Source of the DNA: Acidobacteriota bacterium | Lineage (GTDB): Bacteria > Acidobacteriota > UBA6911 > RPQK01 > CBDAPI01 | Direction of reading: 5' to 3' | NCBI GenBank assembly: GCA_965249245.1 | Contig: CBDFLV010000006.1 | Span: forward strand, 1,658,327-1,722,326 | Length of the DNA stretch: 64,000 bases | Shown here: one piece after another, positions 2,474 to 7,542 of the stretch | Position numbering within the stretch: position 1 is the first letter of the stretch | How the letters are laid out: every line of letters starts with the position of its first letter | Program-made: the position numbers and the translations under genes | Notes under the pieces: model-generated | The model's input: only the letters and a program-made list of their open reading frames with translations | The model's database searches: none | What the model was told of the DNA's origin: nothing

Positions 2474-3082
2474 CTACGCCGCCACCCGTTCGTAGCGATG
2501 GTGAAGGCCACCGCAGATCGGAAACGAGTTGCGCAGGAAGGGCAGCCAGTTCGAAGGCTTGTCAGGCTGATTCTTCGGATGATCCATGTACTTGCGGATG
2601 GTGTCGTCACAAGGAGGATCGCAGACGAGAAGCCGCAGGGTGTCCCCGATTCGTTCGGCACTCCATAAAGGATTCTCTCGGCTCAGCTTGCGAATCAGAT
2701 CGCGCATCTCCTTTGGCACGAGAGGCCGGCCGGGGCGGCTCCTCGACTTGCGGCGCCGGTAGAGACGGAATGCCGTGGTGTGCCATCGCTTGACCGTCGC
2801 CGGCTGCATCAGTTGTGCAACCTGATGCCATTGATCCCAGACCCTGGAGAGCAACACCCAAAGAAGTCTGAAAGCACTGGTGAATCTGGGTCTCGGCCGA
2901 TCCTTCTCAAGGATCCGACGCTTGCACGCGGCCAACTGACTCTTTGCCGCTACGACTCGTGCCGCCAAAGTTACCCGTGAGCTGAAGAAAGCCGATAGAA
3001 ATGTATAGACGAATTCGGCAGCTTGCCTGAGATCAGAACTTGTCCTGAGGATGAGCTGGAACAGGCAACGAATCTTTCTCAT
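2474..3082 (-). pseudogene. Integrase-core transposase remnant lacking the catalytic core
   Basis: ATG at 3082 (MRKIRCL); N-terminal QPATVKRWH/RPGRP/ENPLWSAERI region joins directly to the C-terminal GGLHHRYERVAA motif, with no DDE region between. Confidence 0.75.
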
Positions 3083-3223
3083 GGCCCGCAGGATACGAGG
3101 CCTTGAGCTCCACCTCAAGATCGTAAATATTCGGTAAACCCCGTCTTGCAATAATCTCCTTCCAAATAAGCCCGCGGTCAAACTTTGCTGGACACAGAAG
3201 CTGCGAGTGTGTATACAGGGAGC

Positions 3224-4846
3224 ATGCAGCTGAGTGCTACCACCAAGCCGGAATCGGGTGGACTGACGGCTGATGGCTCGACGAAGCGGGTTTTGGTGGC
3301 CAAGGAAGAGTACATCCGGCTGCGCTGGGCGGCAGCGTACTGGAAGGCCCAGCATGCCGGGGCGGTGGAGAGAGAAAAGCAGTTGAAGTCAGAGAACTTG
3401 AGTCTGCGGGCTCGAGTTCGAGAGCTGGAGAGTCAGCTCTGGGGGCGCAAGAGTGAACAGGCCAAGGGTGGGCGCGCTGGCAGTTCCAGCCCCAAGGCGA
3501 GCGGGCGACCCCGAGGGCAGCAAAAAGGCAAGCAGGGGCACGGTCGGACCACTCTGGACGGGTTGGCAGCCCAGGAAGAGGTAGTGGATCTGGAGGAAGC
3601 CCAAAAAAGCTGTCCGAAATGCGGTCTGGCACTGGAAGCCTTGGGCTGGACGGAAGACGCCGAGGTGGCCGAAATCGAAGTGCGGGCCCACCGGCGGGTG
3701 ATCCGGCGGCGCAAGTACAAAGCGGCCTGCCGCTGCGGGGTGCTGCCCGGCATTGTCACGGCGCCCGCCCCGGCACGCTTGATTCCCAAAGGCAAACTAG
3801 GGATTTCGGTTTGGGTGGAGATTCTGCTGGAGAAGTTTGACCATTGCCGCCCCACCCACCGTCTGTTGCAGCAGTGGCGAGACCACGGTTTGACTCTCTC
3901 TGCAGGAACGGTGGCCGGAGGGCTGAAAAAACTGCAGGGTCTGTTTTTGCCGGTGGCCGAGGCGATCGCCCAGCAGCAGCTCACCCAGGAGAACTGGCAA
4001 GCCGACGAGACCGGCTGGCCGGTGTTTGTGGCGGTGGAAGGCAAAAGCGGACGGCTCTGGCATTTGTGGGTGTTTTTGTCGGCCTCCACAGTCGTGTACC
4101 AGCTCCAACCCAGTCGCTCGTCTGCAGTGCCTCAATCTCACTTCGGCAGCGCCCAGGGCACTTTACTCACCGATCGATATTCTGCCTATAAGAAGCTGGT
4201 CCGGGTCTCAGAGGGGCGTATTTGCCATGCCTTTTGCTGGGCTCACGTGCGCCGCGACTTTTGGCGACTGGGCCTATCCCACCCCCCCTGGCAGGACTGG
4301 TCCCTGATGTGGATTGACGACATTGGCCGGCTCTTTGCTGCCAATCAGCTGCGGCTGGCAGTTCGCGATCAGCCCTTGGAATGGGCCCGGGCCGATCGAA
4401 AGCTGCGGGTGGCGGTTGAGAAAATGCGAGAGCAATGCGAGGCTCAACGCCAGCTTCCCAGCCTGGCTCCCCCCTGTCGCAAGGTCCTGAAAAGCCTGGC
4501 TCGACACTGGCCAGGGCTGACCGTGTTTGTGGATCAACCGGAAGTGGCTATGGACAACAACGCCGCCGAACGCGCCTTGCGCAACCCGGTGGTGGGACGC
4601 AAGAATTACTACGGCTCAGGCAGCCGCTGGAGCGCCCAGTTGGCGGCCAGCTTATTCAGCATCTTTGCCACCCTGCGACTCAACGGCCTCAACCCCCGCC
4701 TGTGGCTCAGGGACTATCTGCAGGCCTGCGCTAGGCAAGGCGGACAGCCGCCACCCGACCTGGATCCTTTTCTTCCCTGGGAAATAAGCCCCCATCGTGC
4801 CCGCGCATTGACCTGGGCCAGGACGCCGGCAGCGGAGGCTGGATGA
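3224..4846 (+). CDS. tnpC: IS66-family transposase TnpC
   Basis: Coiled-coil leader, CPKCG zinc finger, ADETGW, LTDRYSAY, CWAHVRR, DNNAAERALR motifs; ATG 3224 follows an AGGGAG RBS. Confidence 0.92.
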   Translation: MQLSATTKPESGGLTADGSTKRVLVAKEEYIRLRWAAAYWKAQHAGAVEREKQLKSENLSLRARVRELESQLWGRKSEQAKGGRAGSSSPKASGRPRGQQKGKQGHGRTTLDGLAAQEEVVDLEEAQKSCPKCGLALEALGWTEDAEVAEIEVRAHRRVIRRRKYKAACRCGVLPGIVTAPAPARLIPKGKLGISVWVEILLEKFDHCRPTHRLLQQWRDHGLTLSAGTVAGGLKKLQGLFLPVAEAIAQQQLTQENWQADETGWPVFVAVEGKSGRLWHLWVFLSASTVVYQLQPSRSSAVPQSHFGSAQGTLLTDRYSAYKKLVRVSEGRICHAFCWAHVRRDFWRLGLSHPPWQDWSLMWIDDIGRLFAANQLRLAVRDQPLEWARADRKLRVAVEKMREQCEAQRQLPSLAPPCRKVLKSLARHWPGLTVFVDQPEVAMDNNAAERALRNPVVGRKNYYGSGSRWSAQLAASLFSIFATLRLNGLNPRLWLRDYLQACARQGGQPPPDLDPFLPWEISPHRARALTWARTPAAEAG

Positions 4847-5703
4847 AACGCTTCTGCGGGCGAGACTTTAGCGGCCGGGAGATGCGGCGACTGTGTGAGC
4901 TGATTGGCGAAGATCCGACCCGCTCGCGGGCCCAGCTCTCCCGCTTGGCCTGCCAGCTCTTGGGCTGGTTCAAGCCTGACGGTGGCCTCAAGGAGATGAG
5001 CTGCCGGGTGGCCATGCTGCGCATGCATCGGCAGGGGTTGCTGCAGCTGCCGCCCCCTCGCAACCCGAAGGGAGGCTCGGGCCCAATCAAGCACACTTTC
5101 TGCAGCGCACCACAACCGCTGCTGTCCCGACCCGTGCACGAGCTGTCCGGCCTGCATCTGGAGCCGGTCCTGAGCCGCCCCGACTCCACTTTGTGGAATG
5201 AATACATCGACCGCTACCACTATCTGGGATACAAGCCCCTGCCGGGTGCTCAGCTGCGCTACTTCGCTTGTTCCGAAAGCCGCATCCTGGCCCTGCTCGG
5301 CTTTGGCGCCGCCGCTTGGAAAACCGCCCCTCGCGACCGCTTCATCGGCTGGCGTCCTTCGGAAAGGGAGAGAAACCTTCAACTGATCGTCAACAACGCC
5401 CGTTTCTTGATCCTTCCCTGGGTCGAGTCCAAGAACCTGGCCTCTAAACTGCTGGCCATGGCCGCGCGTCAACTCCCCGAGGACTGGCACGACCGCTACG
5501 CCTACCGACCCGTTCTGCTGGAAACCTTCGTCGACACGGGGCGCTTCACAGGCGCCTGCTACAAGGCCGCCAACTGGATCCATGTCGGACAGACCCAGGG
5601 CCGGGGCAAGCTGGACCGTGACCGCAAGGCCGATCTGCCCACCAAAAGCATCTGGCTCTACCCCCTGAGCAAACACTTCCGAAGATCGCTTCGCTCCACT
5701 TGA
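4843..5703 (+). CDS. DUF4338-domain protein (DruA-like) with N-terminal HTH-like segment
   Basis: YIDRYHYLGY, NNARFLILPW, NLASKLL, LETFVD, GACYKAANW motifs; ATGA overlap with the tnpC stop; lies inside the IS66 TIRs. Confidence 0.85.
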   Translation: MKRFCGRDFSGREMRRLCELIGEDPTRSRAQLSRLACQLLGWFKPDGGLKEMSCRVAMLRMHRQGLLQLPPPRNPKGGSGPIKHTFCSAPQPLLSRPVHELSGLHLEPVLSRPDSTLWNEYIDRYHYLGYKPLPGAQLRYFACSESRILALLGFGAAAWKTAPRDRFIGWRPSERERNLQLIVNNARFLILPWVESKNLASKLLAMAARQLPEDWHDRYAYRPVLLETFVDTGRFTGACYKAANWIHVGQTQGRGKLDRDRKADLPTKSIWLYPLSKHFRRSLRST

Positions 5704-5916
5704 GTTCCCAACCCGCCTCACCCCATTAGGCATAAAGCCGATGATGGGTTTACCGAATATTTACTCAAGATCCGCGTAAGTCATTGCTGTAAAAGGTGGA
5801 CGGTATTTTTCGGGGGGACAGCGGCCAAACTGCAGACCTACCCGGAGCTTCTCGAAGGCGCCGCCTGTGAGGGTAGCGGCAAGTTCGGCCCGAAATAGTA
5901 GTAGAATAAAGTCGCT

Positions 5917-6129
5917 ATGGAGAACGAATACACCGCCGTTGTTCGTCGGGACGGAGACTGGTGGATTGGGTGGATCGAGGAGATCCCAGGAGTAAATTCC
6001 CAAGGGGCCAGCCGCGATGAGCTCATGGACAATCTGAGATCAGCCCTGACCGAGATGCTGGAAATGAACCGAGCGGAGGCCAAGAGTGTCGCTGGGGATG
6101 ACTTCGAAGAGGTTCGTATTTCCGCTTGA
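5917..6129 (+). CDS. hicB: HicB-family antitoxin (short form)
   Basis: YTAVVRRDGDWWIGWIEEIPGVNSQG...L; typical partial RNase H-fold HicB, with no obvious DNA-binding tail. Confidence 0.88.
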   Translation: MENEYTAVVRRDGDWWIGWIEEIPGVNSQGASRDELMDNLRSALTEMLEMNRAEAKSVAGDDFEEVRISA

Positions 6130-6311
6130 AGCGGCGAAGGCTCCTTTCTCATCTCACAAAGAACGGCTGCGCCCTGATTCGTGAGGGTGCTAAACATTCC
6201 TGGTGGGGAAACCCTTCCACTGGCTCCAAGTCGGCCGTACCGCGCCATACTGAGATAAGCGATCAGCTGTGCCGAAAGATCTGCAAGGACCTTGGAATCA
6301 ACCGTCCCTGA
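6126..6311 (+). CDS. hicA: HicA-family mRNA interferase toxin
   Basis: 61 aa, REGAKH...VPRHTEI...ICKDLGI; 4-nt overlap with hicB. Confidence 0.88.
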   Translation: MKRRRLLSHLTKNGCALIREGAKHSWWGNPSTGSKSAVPRHTEISDQLCRKICKDLGINRP

Positions 6312-6328
6312 ATTAGTGGAAATATACC

Positions 6329-7542
6329 CGTATGGTGCCAAAACTCGACTGACTCGTCACGCCGCCTCCCGATGGTAATAGCTGAGCATTCCACCGAGGC
6401 GCTCTCGGCGTAGCACTGGGCCTTGAGTCGGGGTGTCCTTTGGCAAAGATTCGATTAACCGGTTGTCCAGTCCTTGGTGATTCCTCTCGCGGTGATAATG
6501 ACTGAGGTACTCACGGACCGCCCTTCGAAGGTGATGCTCCCCCAGCAGGATCATCCTCTCTAAACATTCCTTTTTGATTGATCGCACGAATCTCTCCGCG
6601 TAGGCATTCAAATCCGGACTCTGAGCCGGCAACTTCACGGTCCTCACACCACCAGACGCCAGAATGTCAGCAAACTCTCGCGTGTATAGTGGGTCTCGGT
6701 CGTGGATCAGATACTTGGTTTTCTTGAGGAACCCATCGACGACATCAGTCAGATTGCGGGCAATCTGCTTCATCCACTCTCCGTAAGGTTGTTGAATTAT
6801 CCCTGCGACCTCGACGCGCCGGGTCTTAAGATCGATCACAAAAAGTACGAAGTAGCGAACCAGGCCAGCCTTGGTGATGATCTCCAGGGAGAAGAAGTCG
6901 GCAGCAGCGATCGCTCCCCAATGGGCTTTCAGGAAAGTCTCCCACGGCATCCCCCTGCCTCGCTCCGGAGCCGGCTCGATACCGTTTTCTTTCAGGATTC
7001 TTTTGATGGTGTTCCGCTCAATCCGGTGGCCCAGATTACGCAAAGCGCCTCTGATTCGAGTGTACCCCCAGGTGTGATTGTCTTCTGCCATCCGAACGAT
7101 GAGTGCCCGGATCTCTTGCGAACTCCGGGGGCGGCCTGGTCTGCGCTGCTGGCTGCCGTCGTACTTCTTGGCGATCAACTCTCTGTGCCAATGCAGCAGC
7201 GTATCCGGTGTGACGATGCAGGCAAGCTCCCTCAGGGCCGCGCGTCCCACGACCTTGGCCTTTTGAGCGAGCCGCCGTCTCTGGGTGTTGGTGAGGCGCA
7301 GCCGTTTGTTGCCCACCTGTTCACGGAGTACGCGGTTCTCCTCTTTGAGGTAATCGATTGCATCCTGCTGTGCACGATTGACCCAACCCGCCCACATCAT
7401 CAGCAGAAACTTCAACGGCAAGTTCATGAAGGCTATCGTATTCCATTCGTCCAGGCCGATCAGACGAAATGGCCATCAGAAGAGAGGGCACAGGATCTGA
7501 AGCACCCTCCGATTCCGGTCAGCGGAGTTTTGGCACCATACG
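6329..7542 (-). mobile_element. rve/integrase-core IS with 18-bp perfect TIR
   Basis: CGTATGGTGCCAAAACTC (6329-6346) and GAGTTTTGGCACCATACG (7525-7542) bracket a single transposase; no TSD seen. Confidence 0.85.
6357..7427 (-). CDS. Integrase-core (rve) DDE transposase, apparently intact
   Basis: ADFF, IHDRD, PDLNAYAERFVRSIKKECL, YHRERNHQGL motifs. Confidence 0.9.
   Translation of the reverse strand: MNLPLKFLLMMWAGWVNRAQQDAIDYLKEENRVLREQVGNKRLRLTNTQRRRLAQKAKVVGRAALRELACIVTPDTLLHWHRELIAKKYDGSQQRRPGRPRSSQEIRALIVRMAEDNHTWGYTRIRGALRNLGHRIERNTIKRILKENGIEPAPERGRGMPWETFLKAHWGAIAAADFFSLEIITKAGLVRYFVLFVIDLKTRRVEVAGIIQQPYGEWMKQIARNLTDVVDGFLKKTKYLIHDRDPLYTREFADILASGGVRTVKLPAQSPDLNAYAERFVRSIKKECLERMILLGEHHLRRAVREYLSHYHRERNHQGLDNRLIESLPKDTPTQGPVLRRERLGGMLSYYHREAA

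What the first reader, a model, noticed from the sequence alone, without database searches (positions are those of the whole stretch)
3123..5764. Intact IS66 lacking tnpA/tnpB but carrying a coupled DUF4338 gene; possible Mom-like DNA-modifying passenger
Seen: perfect 19-bp TIRs and an 8-bp TSD enclose exactly tnpC plus an ATGA-coupled DUF4338 ORF, so DUF4338 travels with the element. Established: DUF4338 is the Druantia DruA domain, and some IS66 members lack the accessory ORFs. Inference: the motifs RFLILPW/NLASKLL/LETFVD/GACYKAANW..VG resemble the GNAT-like phage Mu Mom family. The element may therefore modify DNA (anti-restriction or self-marking), or use DUF4338 as a transposition cofactor, rather than being a Druantia system.
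Basis: partly seen in the sequence, partly recalled or inferred. Interest (0 to 1): 0.72.

Follow-up and report, generated by a model that had tools for sequence, protein, structure and literature searches.

The report
Two-gene IS66 transposon with Mom-like enzyme
This is a real, recently very active jumping gene (about 70 copies in this one genome) whose transposase gene is joined to a second gene for an enzyme most like phage Mu's DNA-modifying protein Mom. Close relatives of the element manage without that gene, so it looks like a conserved but optional helper whose chemistry is still untested.

Summary
Window 3123-5764 is a 2,642-bp IS66-family element with perfect 19-bp inverted ends, an 8-bp target duplication (TCAAGATC), a TnpC transposase gene and an ATGA-overlapping DUF4338 gene.

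The genome holds 54 TIR-to-TIR copies of 2,642 bp plus one of 2,639 bp (55 full-length BLAST hits, all at least 99.6% identical). A second family of about 11 copies (2,618 bp) has the same ends. No IS66 TnpB was found anywhere in the genome.

DUF4338 folds confidently (pLDDT 94.6) as a small N-terminal helical domain plus a GNAT domain. Its best solved-structure match is phage Mu Mom. Six of Mom's proposed active-site residues align to identical, mostly conserved positions; Mom's essential insertion is missing. It is not a Druantia system.

Across phyla the gene sits inside GTAAATATTCGG-type ends, keeps the 4-nt start/stop overlap, and is always more conserved than its transposase. Homologues are fused to at least five transposase families.

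New here: sister elements of about 2.0 kb with the same ends lack the gene. It changed state at least three times on the TnpC tree, so it is dispensable. Function remains inferred. I found no description in the searched literature, but this scan has already noted the pairing 49 times.

The parts
3115..3122 (.). Left copy of the 8-bp target-site duplication TCAAGATC
   Evidence: Read directly from the sequence. It is identical to 5765-5772.
3123..3141 (+). Left terminal inverted repeat GTAAATATTCGGTAAACCC
   Evidence: 19/19 complementary to 5746-5764. The outer 12 bp, GTAAATATTCGG, are conserved in related elements from many phyla.
3123..5764 (+). Whole insertion sequence, 2,642 bp (called el1 in this report)
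   Evidence: 55 full-length copies at least 99.6% identical in the genome. 54 TIR pairs are exactly 2,642 bp apart. The window copy equals the consensus.
3185..4846 (+). tnpC, the IS66-family DDE transposase: 553 aa from TTG 3185, with an alternative ATG at 3224. The CxxC...CxC zinc-finger motif is present.
   Evidence: Pfam DDE_Tnp_IS66 1.9e-58 and NCBIfam transpos_IS66 1.8e-91. PHROG transposase 2.4e-68.
4843..4846 (+). ATGA start/stop overlap (translational coupling of tnpC and the DUF4338 gene)
   Evidence: Read from the sequence. The same 4-nt NTGA overlap occurs in 26 of 30 diverse related elements.
4843..5127 (+). DUF4338 protein, N-terminal domain (aa 1-95): two short strands, three helices and a linker. 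Possibly HTH-like.
   Evidence: AlphaFold models. Fold search gives only weak HTH/wHTH-type matches, E >= 0.68. A weak Pfam PaaX wHTH hit at aa 48-68, E 0.0066.
5128..5703 (+). DUF4338 protein, GNAT-fold domain of the Mom type (aa 96-286, plus the stop codon)
   Evidence: Pfam PF14236 1.1e-47 over aa 95-259. Model pLDDT 94.6. Foldseek top PDB hit is Mu Mom 8bv8 at E 2.3e-6. hhalign to a Mom profile aligns H126, Y127, S201, D231, R234 and Y240 to Mom H58, Y59, S124, D149, R151 and Y159.
5746..5764 (-). Right terminal inverted repeat
5765..5772 (.). Right copy of the 8-bp target-site duplication TCAAGATC

Best explanation
SHOWN
- Window 3123-5764 is one copy of a recently and massively active two-gene insertion sequence.
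- It belongs to a coherent IS66 subgroup with ends GTAAATATTCGG..., 8-bp duplications, and neither tnpA nor tnpB.
- The TnpC transposase gene is translationally coupled, by an ATGA overlap, to a 286-aa DUF4338 protein.
- That protein has a small helical N-terminal domain and a GNAT domain whose closest solved relative is phage Mu Mom.
- It keeps identical residues at six of the positions proposed for Mom's active site. These include the equivalents of S124 and R151, both essential in Mom.
- It lacks Mom's essential HTH-like insertion.
- The gene is under purifying selection and is more conserved than the transposase it travels with.
- Its homologues are fused to transposases of at least five families.
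- Sister lineages with the same type of ends lack it.

INFERRED
- The protein is made roughly one-to-one with TnpC and works with the transposase as a non-essential auxiliary enzyme.
- The N-terminal domain would bring it to DNA or to the transpososome.
- The Mom-type active site would transfer an acyl or aminoacyl group onto nucleic acid. The most likely target is a DNA base at or near the element's ends, its target, or its transposition intermediate.
- This would tune transposition or protect the intermediate.
- It is not part of a Druantia defence system.
For: - Anatomy and copy number.
- No TnpB_IS66 in the whole genome while control genomes ring. The burst to about 70 copies therefore happened without the canonical accessory protein.
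- Purifying selection: the two IS families in this genome differ by 44% in TnpC (dS 1.43) but only 12% in DUF4338 (dS 0.32, dN/dS 0.23).
- In 325 of 325 pairs among 26 elements, DUF4338 is more conserved than TnpC (62% against 47% on average). The two identities are correlated, r = 0.88.
- Coupling: a 4-nt overlap in 26 of 30 diverse elements. Natural in-frame TnpC-DUF4338 fusions also exist.
- Fusions of homologues to IS66, Tn5/IS4-like, ISAzo13, IS630-like and ISAs1-like transposases.
- Fold: pLDDT 94.6. Mom 8bv8 is the top PDB hit at E 2.3e-6, followed by GNATs including the cytidine acetyltransferases TmcA and NAT10. Mom-like phage proteins top the viral library.
- The best PHROG family is 'Mom-like DNA modification protein', E 2.7e-4.
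- hhalign residue mapping, and conservation in 59 homologues: H126 59/59, S201 58/59, Y240 57/59, R/K234 51/59.
- Mom's chemistry and essential residues are taken from PMC13219725.
- DUF4338 is called a GNAT domain in PMC10853773.
Against: - No experiment or read-level data bear on the activity.
- About 2.0-kb sister elements with the same type of ends and a single TnpC ORF lack the gene: 48 of 71 TnpC-anchored loci.
- A 19-member DUF-less clade is nested among DUF-bearing lineages. A single split is rejected, AU p = 5e-49. Transposition of this TnpC type therefore does not need the gene.
- Mom's essential R111 falls in an alignment gap, and Mom's essential insertion (residues 175-209) is absent.
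- The hhalign match is weak overall: E 0.0047, probability 7.5%.
- The N-terminal domain has no significant structural match, so DNA binding is not shown.
- GNAT substrates cannot be predicted from the fold. The Mom authors make this point themselves.
Confidence: 0.5

Rival explanations
1. The gene is cargo rather than a transposition factor. It would be a Mom-like DNA-hypermodifying enzyme that changes the host's, or a co-resident mobile element's, DNA genome-wide (anti-restriction or epigenetic marking). The element would simply carry it because it benefits whoever holds it.
For: - Mom is the best structural match and most of its active-site residues are conserved.
- The gene is dispensable for sister elements, as expected for cargo.
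Against: - Cargo would not be expected to be translationally coupled to the transposase in 26 of 30 elements.
- Cargo would not be expected to be repeatedly fused in frame to transposases of five families.
- With about 70 copies in one genome, a dosage-insensitive, genome-wide modifier is hard to picture.
- An insertion sequence has no packaging step in which protective modification would pay, unlike Mu.
Confidence: 0.17
2. It is a protein acyltransferase. The GNAT domain would acetylate or acylate the transposase or a host DNA-binding protein, and so switch transposition on or off. No nucleic acid would be modified.
For: - Most GNATs among the structural matches act on proteins or small amines, for example RimI, SpeG and HP0935.
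- Coupling and fusion to transposases fit a modifier that acts in cis on the transposase.
Against: - The best match and the best profile hit are specifically Mom, not protein acetyltransferases.
- The residues shared with Mom are those of its unusual active site.
- The partner transposases belong to unrelated families with no obvious common target residue.
Confidence: 0.15
3. It is a toxin-like GNAT that acts on charged tRNA, like TacT, AtaT or ItaT. It would serve as an addiction or growth-control module for the element.
For: - Mom uses charged tRNA as co-substrate.
- GNAT toxins that acetylate aminoacyl-tRNA are known (general knowledge; they are also mentioned in PMC13219725).
Against: - No antitoxin gene lies within the 2.6-kb element.
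- About 79 intact or nearly intact copies are tolerated in one genome.
- GNAT toxins are not among the top 50 structural matches.
Confidence: 0.05
4. It is a piece of a Druantia type I anti-phage system (DruA), as NCBI names close homologues.
For: - Pfam PF14236 is named DruA and matches at 1.1e-47.
- A 90%-identical protein is labelled 'Druantia anti-phage system protein DruA' by NCBI.
Against: - The gene lies inside inverted repeats with only a transposase.
- About 60 copies sit in different genomic contexts.
- The PADLOC DruA model matches only at E 1.7e-3, over 82 residues.
- No other Druantia gene can fit in the element.
Confidence: 0.02

Closest known systems
IS66 family, ISBst12 group (single-ORF elements such as ISBst12 and ISDge4)
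   Same: - IS66-type DDE transposase (TnpC) without tnpA or tnpB.
- Inverted ends beginning GTAA/GTGA, and an 8-bp duplication. ISDge4 has ends GTGACTAC/GTAACTGC and the duplication CCTCGATG (PMC12898284).
- The roughly 2.0-kb sister elements found here fit this group.
   Different: - This element carries a second, translationally coupled gene (DUF4338), so it is not single-ORF.
- The subgroup has its own conserved terminus, GTAAATATTCGG.
Canonical IS66 group (IS66, IS679: tnpA-tnpB-tnpC)
   Same: The same transposase family, 8-bp duplications and GTAA-type ends.
   Different: - There is no tnpA or tnpB in the element, and no TnpB_IS66 anywhere in the genome.
- The accessory gene lies downstream of tnpC rather than upstream, and is unrelated to TnpA or TnpB.
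Phage Mu Mom (PDB 8bv8; Pfam PF25680), a GNAT that moves glycine from Gly-tRNA(Gly) to N6 of adenine in double-stranded DNA
   Same: - Best structural match and best PHROG family.
- Identical residues at Mom positions H58, Y59, S124, D149, R151 and Y159 in a profile-profile alignment.
- H126, S201 and Y240 (the equivalents of H58, S124 and Y159) are almost invariant in the family. Y127, D/E231 and R/K234 are kept in 49, 53 and 51 of 59 homologues.
   Different: - No Pfam PF25680 match at E <= 0.01.
- Only 14-18% identity in the two 8bv8 chain alignments.
- Mom's essential R111 is unaligned, and its essential HTH-like insertion (175-209) is absent.
- It has an extra 95-aa N-terminal domain.
- It is carried by an insertion sequence, not a phage late operon with Com.
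DruA of Druantia type I
   Same: It shares the DUF4338/PF14236 domain.
   Different: - It is not in a druABCDE operon.
- The PADLOC DruA model matches only weakly.
- Its partner is a transposase.
- DruA's own function is unknown. No paper in the library links DruA to transposases.
Transposases with a fused DUF4338 domain (Tn5/IS4-like, ISAs1-like, ISAzo13, IS630-like, IS66)
   Same: They share the same DUF4338 module (38-55% identity to this protein). R187 and S201 equivalents are invariant, and H126, E227 and Y240 equivalents are kept in at least 90%.
   Different: There the module is part of the transposase polypeptide. Here it is a separate, coupled gene.

Membership tests
IS66 family (insertion sequences) | DDE transposase of the IS66/TnpC type | tested here: met
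   Pfam PF03050 at 1.9e-58 (198.6 bits against a cut-off of 23.1). NCBIfam NF033517 at 307 bits against a cut-off of 180.
IS66 family (insertion sequences) | Terminal inverted repeats of about 15-30 bp beginning GTAA, and an 8-bp target duplication | tested here: met
   A 19-bp perfect repeat beginning GTAAATA. An 8-bp duplication here, and in 32 of 61 genome copies. The family features come from my own knowledge and from the ISDge4 example in PMC12898284.
IS66 family, canonical group | Accessory genes tnpA and tnpB upstream of tnpC | tested here: not met
   Only two ORFs lie between the ends. PF05717 (TnpB_IS66) has 0 matches in the whole genome while control genomes ring.
IS66 family, ISBst12 group | A single ORF (transposase only) | tested here: not met
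   A second conserved, coupled ORF is present. The roughly 2.0-kb sister elements do meet this feature.
Mom family (PF25680) | GNAT fold closest to Mom | tested here: met
   8bv8 chains B and A rank 1 and 2 in the PDB search, at E 2.3e-6 and TM 0.61 on the target. Mom-like phage proteins top the viral library.
Mom family (PF25680) | Significant match to the family's sequence profile | tested here: not met
   PF25680 is not among the Pfam hits at E <= 0.01. There is only a partial PHROG 'Mom-like' hit, E 2.7e-4 over aa 197-258. hhalign gives E 0.0047 and probability 7.5%.
Mom family (PF25680) | Active-site residues H58, Y59, R111, S124, D149, R151 and Y159 (PMC13219725) | tested here: inconclusive
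   Six of the seven align to identical residues: H126, Y127, S201, D231, R234 and Y240. R111 falls in a gap, although an invariant R187 lies four residues upstream on the same strand. No structural superposition was possible.
Mom family (PF25680) | HTH-like insertion (Mom 175-209), essential for activity | tested here: not met
   Mom residues of about 171-208 align to gaps in the DUF4338 profile. The model has only a loop at 252-267.
Mom family (PF25680) | Glycyl-tRNA-dependent modification of adenine in dsDNA | not testable with these tools
   This needs biochemistry or modification-aware sequencing.
Druantia type I (DruA) | DUF4338 protein encoded in an operon with DruB, DruC, DruD and the DruE helicase | tested here: not met
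   The gene is enclosed with tnpC alone by inverted repeats 2.6 kb apart. 61 copies sit in different flanks.
Druantia type I (DruA) | Match to the defence-system DruA model | tested here: inconclusive
   PADLOC DruA1 matches at E 1.7e-3 and 15.5 bits, over 82 residues only. Pfam PF14236, which pools the whole DUF4338 family, matches strongly.

The most novel reading that the evidence does not exclude
DUF4338 proteins would be Mom-type enzymes that covalently hypermodify DNA, possibly with a charged tRNA as donor, as an integral though optional step of transposition. DDE transposons of at least five families would have recruited them. This would be the first link between DNA hypermodification chemistry and transposition. 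It would also predict that the unexplained DruA of Druantia type I is a DNA-modifying enzyme.
Probability: 0.22. Interest if true: 0.9.

Novelty: new variant of a known kind. Interest (0 to 1): 0.6.

Why it matters
1. IS66 is a large family whose mechanism is poorly understood. A conserved alternative accessory gene, together with natural sister elements that lack it, offers a clean genetic comparison.
2. The DUF4338 family is large: 9,182 clusters at 50% identity match at E <= 1e-3. Databases name these proteins after a defence protein, so copies carried by insertion sequences, such as the roughly 79 here, will inflate counts of 'Druantia' genes.
3. Mom was shown in 2026 to use charged tRNA to modify DNA. 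A Mom-like active site riding with transposases suggests that this chemistry has a second, unexplored biological setting. It also gives a testable idea for DruA.
4. The element makes up about 3% of this genome, and its copies carry signs of recombination between them. It is therefore a main driver of this genome's structure.

Tried and rejected
No transcription, read-level or modification evidence could be sought.
- A sequence search of the PDB with the family profile found nothing meaningful: a plant defensin at E 2.
- A fold search of the N-terminal 98 residues alone gave only insignificant matches, E >= 0.68. They are mostly HTH/wHTH domains, which I treat as a hint only.
- The sigma-70 promoter scan of 3000-5900 found no site, and the terminator-like sites are no more frequent than in shuffles.
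A 12-sequence alignment worked.
- A search for TnpC in 150 genomes of the same phylum was uninformative. Only four distant hits (33-36% identity) appeared, and at most nine candidates were scored per genome. The TnpC-anchored metagenome scan replaced it.
- Han et al. 2001 on IS679 (PMC95320) is not held, so canonical IS66 features rest on my own knowledge and on PMC12898284.
- My first manual alignment put Mom R111 on the invariant R187. The objective hhalign alignment does not, so I report R111 as unresolved.
- A Druantia reading was considered and rejected on anatomy.
- A toxin reading was considered and rejected on copy number and the lack of an antitoxin.
Full report
**1. The observation**

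- A 19-bp perfect inverted repeat, GTAAATATTCGGTAAACCC, lies at 3123-3141 and 5746-5764.
- It is flanked by the direct repeat TCAAGATC at 3115-3122 and 5765-5772.
- Between the ends lie two + strand ORFs. The first is 553 aa (3185-4846, with an alternative ATG at 3224). The second is 286 aa (4843-5703), and its ATG overlaps the first ORF's TGA.
- The first is an IS66-family transposase: Pfam DDE_Tnp_IS66 at 1.9e-58 and NCBIfam transpos_IS66 at 1.8e-91.
- The second matches Pfam PF14236 (DruA/DUF4338) at 1.1e-47. It matches the PADLOC defence model of DruA only at E 1.7e-3.
- Removing the element and one repeat copy shows that it sits at the very start of a truncated IS481-like ORF on the minus strand.

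**2. A burst in this genome**

The window lies in a 6.67-Mb assembly of six contigs.
- The DUF4338 protein has 86 matches there. Of these, 67 are full-length at 99-100% identity, four are truncated, twelve are of a second type at 88-89%, and three are fragments.
- By DNA there are 55 full-length copies at least 99.6% identical, and 54 end-to-end pairs exactly 2,642 bp apart.
- Of 61 complete elements, 60 keep tnpC open, all 61 keep the DUF4338 gene open, and 32 have a perfect 8-bp duplication.
- Many of the rest show flank halves swapped reciprocally between two copies. This indicates recombination between copies, or assembly joins at copies.
- The window copy equals the consensus.
- Variation among the copies is slight: 42 variable sites. 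tnpC has 13 nonsynonymous and 6 synonymous changes, and the DUF4338 gene has 6 and 8. These numbers are too small to weigh.
- The genome has no match to TnpB_IS66, although control genomes ring. The expansion therefore did not use the canonical IS66 accessory protein.
- Among 30 relatives the gene is patchy. One genome of the same genus has 28 matches and most have 0 or 1. This is the pattern of an insertion sequence.

**3. A second family and a module exchange**

About eleven copies of a 2,618-bp element carry the same 19-bp ends, 8-bp duplications and the same ATGA overlap.
- Its TnpC is only 56% identical to that of the window element (dS 1.43).
- Its DUF4338 is 88% identical (dS 0.32, dN/dS 0.23).
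- DNA similarity starts at position 1712 of the element, which is the gene junction, and runs to the right end.
- The 'DUF4338 plus right end' module has therefore been exchanged between two IS lineages, and the gene is under purifying selection.

**4. What the second protein is**

A model built on 59 homologues is confident: pLDDT 94.6 and pTM 0.86.
- Residues 1-95 form two short strands, three helices and a linker. Residues 96-286 form a GNAT fold.
- The best match among solved structures is phage Mu Mom, 8bv8 (E 2.3e-6, TM 0.61 on the target). Ordinary GNATs and the nucleic-acid acetyltransferases TmcA and NAT10 follow.
- In the viral library, Mom-like and NAT_SF phage proteins lead.
- The best PHROG family is 'Mom-like DNA modification protein', E 2.7e-4.
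- An Aravind-group paper already calls DUF4338 a GNAT domain (PMC10853773).

Mom was shown in 2026 to move glycine from Gly-tRNA(Gly) to N6 of adenine in dsDNA (PMC13219725).
- R111, S124 and R151 are essential.
- H58, Y59, D149 and Y159 are further proposed active-site residues. Alanine mutants of H58, Y59 and Y159 drastically reduce activity, and earlier work cited there showed D149A greatly reduces it.
- An HTH-like insertion at 175-209 is essential.

I fetched Mom from the Mu record, built a 29-sequence Mom alignment and compared profiles.
- The match is weak overall (E 0.0047, 148 columns).
- It places H126, Y127, S201, D231, R234 and Y240 of this protein on Mom H58, Y59, S124, D149, R151 and Y159.
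- R111 falls in a gap, and the Mom insertion is absent.
- In 59 family members H126 is kept in 59, S201 in 58, Y240 in 57, R/K234 in 51 and D/E231 in 53. R187 and E227 are invariant.
- The N-terminal domain on its own gives only insignificant, mostly HTH-type matches.

I conclude that this is a sister of the Mom family inside the GNAT superfamily. It has a Mom-like active site and a different accessory domain. It is not a member of the Mom family.

**5. Relatives elsewhere**

The family is large: 9,182 clusters at 50% identity match at E <= 1e-3.
- Thirty-three longer homologues (38-55% identical) include fusions to several transposase types. IS66 accounts for 5. Tn5/IS4-like transposases account for 8 with Tnp_DNA_bind, 5 with DDE_Tnp_1 and 3 with the Tn5 dimerisation domain. 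ISAzo13 and DDE_3 (IS630-like) account for 1 each.
- A Thiodictyon plasmid carries a fusion to an ISAs1-like transposase.
- In one genome per species, the 80 best loci come from Acidobacteriota, Gammaproteobacteria, Desulfobacterota, Nitrospirota, Spirochaetia, Bacteroidales, Verrucomicrobiota, Chlorobiaceae, Anaerolineae and Phycisphaerae.
- Of the 70 loci with enough upstream sequence, 58 have an IS66 TnpC directly upstream.
- Most of the others that I scanned have a divergent IS66 transposase upstream, an IS66 transposase downstream, or a DDE_Tnp_1 transposase upstream.
- The 4-nt start/stop overlap is kept in 26 of 30 elements.
- Twenty-nine loci have a pair of GTAAATATTCGG-type ends 2.5-2.8 kb apart, and nine of these pairs have a perfect 8-bp duplication.
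- In all 325 pairs among 26 elements, DUF4338 is more conserved than TnpC (62% against 47%). The two identities are correlated, r = 0.88, as expected for co-inheritance.

**6. The gene is dispensable**

Starting from TnpC instead of DUF4338, the 80 closest metagenome loci are 43-52% identical. That is as close as the DUF-bearing elements of other phyla.
- Of the 71 loci with room downstream, only 23 carry DUF4338 and 48 do not.
- The elements without it are about 2.0 kb long, have a single 574-601-aa IS66 ORF and the same type of ends, and show no DUF4338 remnant. One has a perfect 8-bp duplication.
- On a TnpC tree of 85 sequences, presence of the gene needs at least 5 changes, of which at least 3 are forced by well-supported branches. 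Shuffled labels need 25.8.
- A 19-member clade without the gene (support 100) is nested among lineages that have it.
- A single split is rejected, AU p = 5e-49.
- Together with the co-divergence in section 5, this points to several losses, after which the one-gene elements went on diversifying.
- DUF4338 is therefore strongly constrained where it is present, but this transposase type does not require it.

**7. Interpretation**

- The coupling, the fusions to unrelated transposases and the high conservation argue for a function carried out together with the transposase.
- The Mom-type active site argues that the function is catalytic and may act on nucleic acid.
- The losses argue that it is auxiliary.
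- I therefore commit to a non-essential auxiliary enzyme of the transpososome that modifies DNA, with about 50% confidence.
- The rivals are pure cargo that modifies DNA genome-wide (17%), a protein acyltransferase (15%), a tRNA-directed toxin (5%) and Druantia (2%).
- Nothing here shows activity.

**8. Novelty**

- I found no paper in the library that mentions DruA together with a transposase. The four papers naming DUF4338 do not describe this link.
- The Mom paper mentions neither DUF4338, DruA nor transposons.
- Within this scan, 49 earlier notes in at least 34 genomes describe the same pairing, so it is not new to the project.
- This window adds five things: the largest burst, the absence of TnpB, the module exchange, the residue-level comparison with the 2026 Mom work, and the evidence that the gene is dispensable.

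Noticed in passing
window 5917-6311: A HicB-like (70 aa; weak UPF0150 match at E 0.0028, below the Pfam cut-off) and HicA toxin (61 aa, Pfam HicA_toxin 6.3e-9) pair lies directly to the right of the element.
   Followed up: no
window 2477-3130 (-) and 6357-7427 (-): The element sits at the 5' end of a truncated IS481/IS3-like ORF that retains only an HTH_32 region. A full 356-aa IS481-like transposase (rve_3, HTH_32) lies at 6357-7427. An IS4-type DDE_Tnp_1 fragment runs off the window start (1-534). The neighbourhood is a pile-up of insertion sequences.
   Followed up: partly
own genome, e.g. C6:1634677-1637318 and C6:2116992-2119633; C6:77238 and C6:1385350; C4:770456 and C6:1101803: Pairs of copies carry reciprocally swapped halves of two target duplications (a/b and b/a). 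Two pairs lie in the same orientation on one contig, and one of these brackets a 480-kb segment that contains this window. This indicates recombination between copies (a cointegrate-like or excisable segment) or assembly joins at copies.
   Followed up: partly
own genome, e.g. C5:1733861-1736478 (2,618-bp family): A second IS family has identical 19-bp ends. Its TnpC is 56% identical but its DUF4338 is 88% identical, and DNA homology begins exactly at the gene junction. The 'DUF4338 plus right end' module was exchanged between the two lineages.
   Followed up: yes
window 3123-3184 (left non-coding end), across the 54 genome copies: Six of the 42 variable sites among the copies fall in the 62-bp left non-coding end, against 19 in 1,658 bp of tnpC. 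That is a roughly ninefold higher density.
   Followed up: no
L102-L181 (metagenome loci), e.g. L128:1113-3136: About 2.0-kb one-gene sister elements have GTAAATATTCGG-type ends. Their termini match that exact 12-mer less often than those of two-gene elements (9/38 against 54/80 ends). This is not corrected for phylogeny.
   Followed up: partly
L182:2908-4242 and L183:2986-6188 (Candidatus Thiodictyon syntrophicum plasmids): One plasmid has a DUF4338 domain fused to an ISAs1-like transposase (DDE_Tnp_1_assoc plus DDE_Tnp_1). The other has a free-standing DUF4338 gene just upstream of a tyrosine integrase and an IS91 (Y2) transposase.
   Followed up: partly
protein P0004 and other close homologues: NCBI names a 90%-identical protein 'Druantia anti-phage system protein DruA', although this type of gene is part of an insertion sequence. 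Counts of defence genes based on that name or on PF14236 will be inflated.
   Followed up: partly
window 3185-4843 (TnpC residues 385-445): The transposase gives weak matches to the PADLOC models typeIV_Cas8 (E 6.1e-6) and Csf1 (E 1.5e-4). This is probably a spurious or shared helical segment.
   Followed up: no
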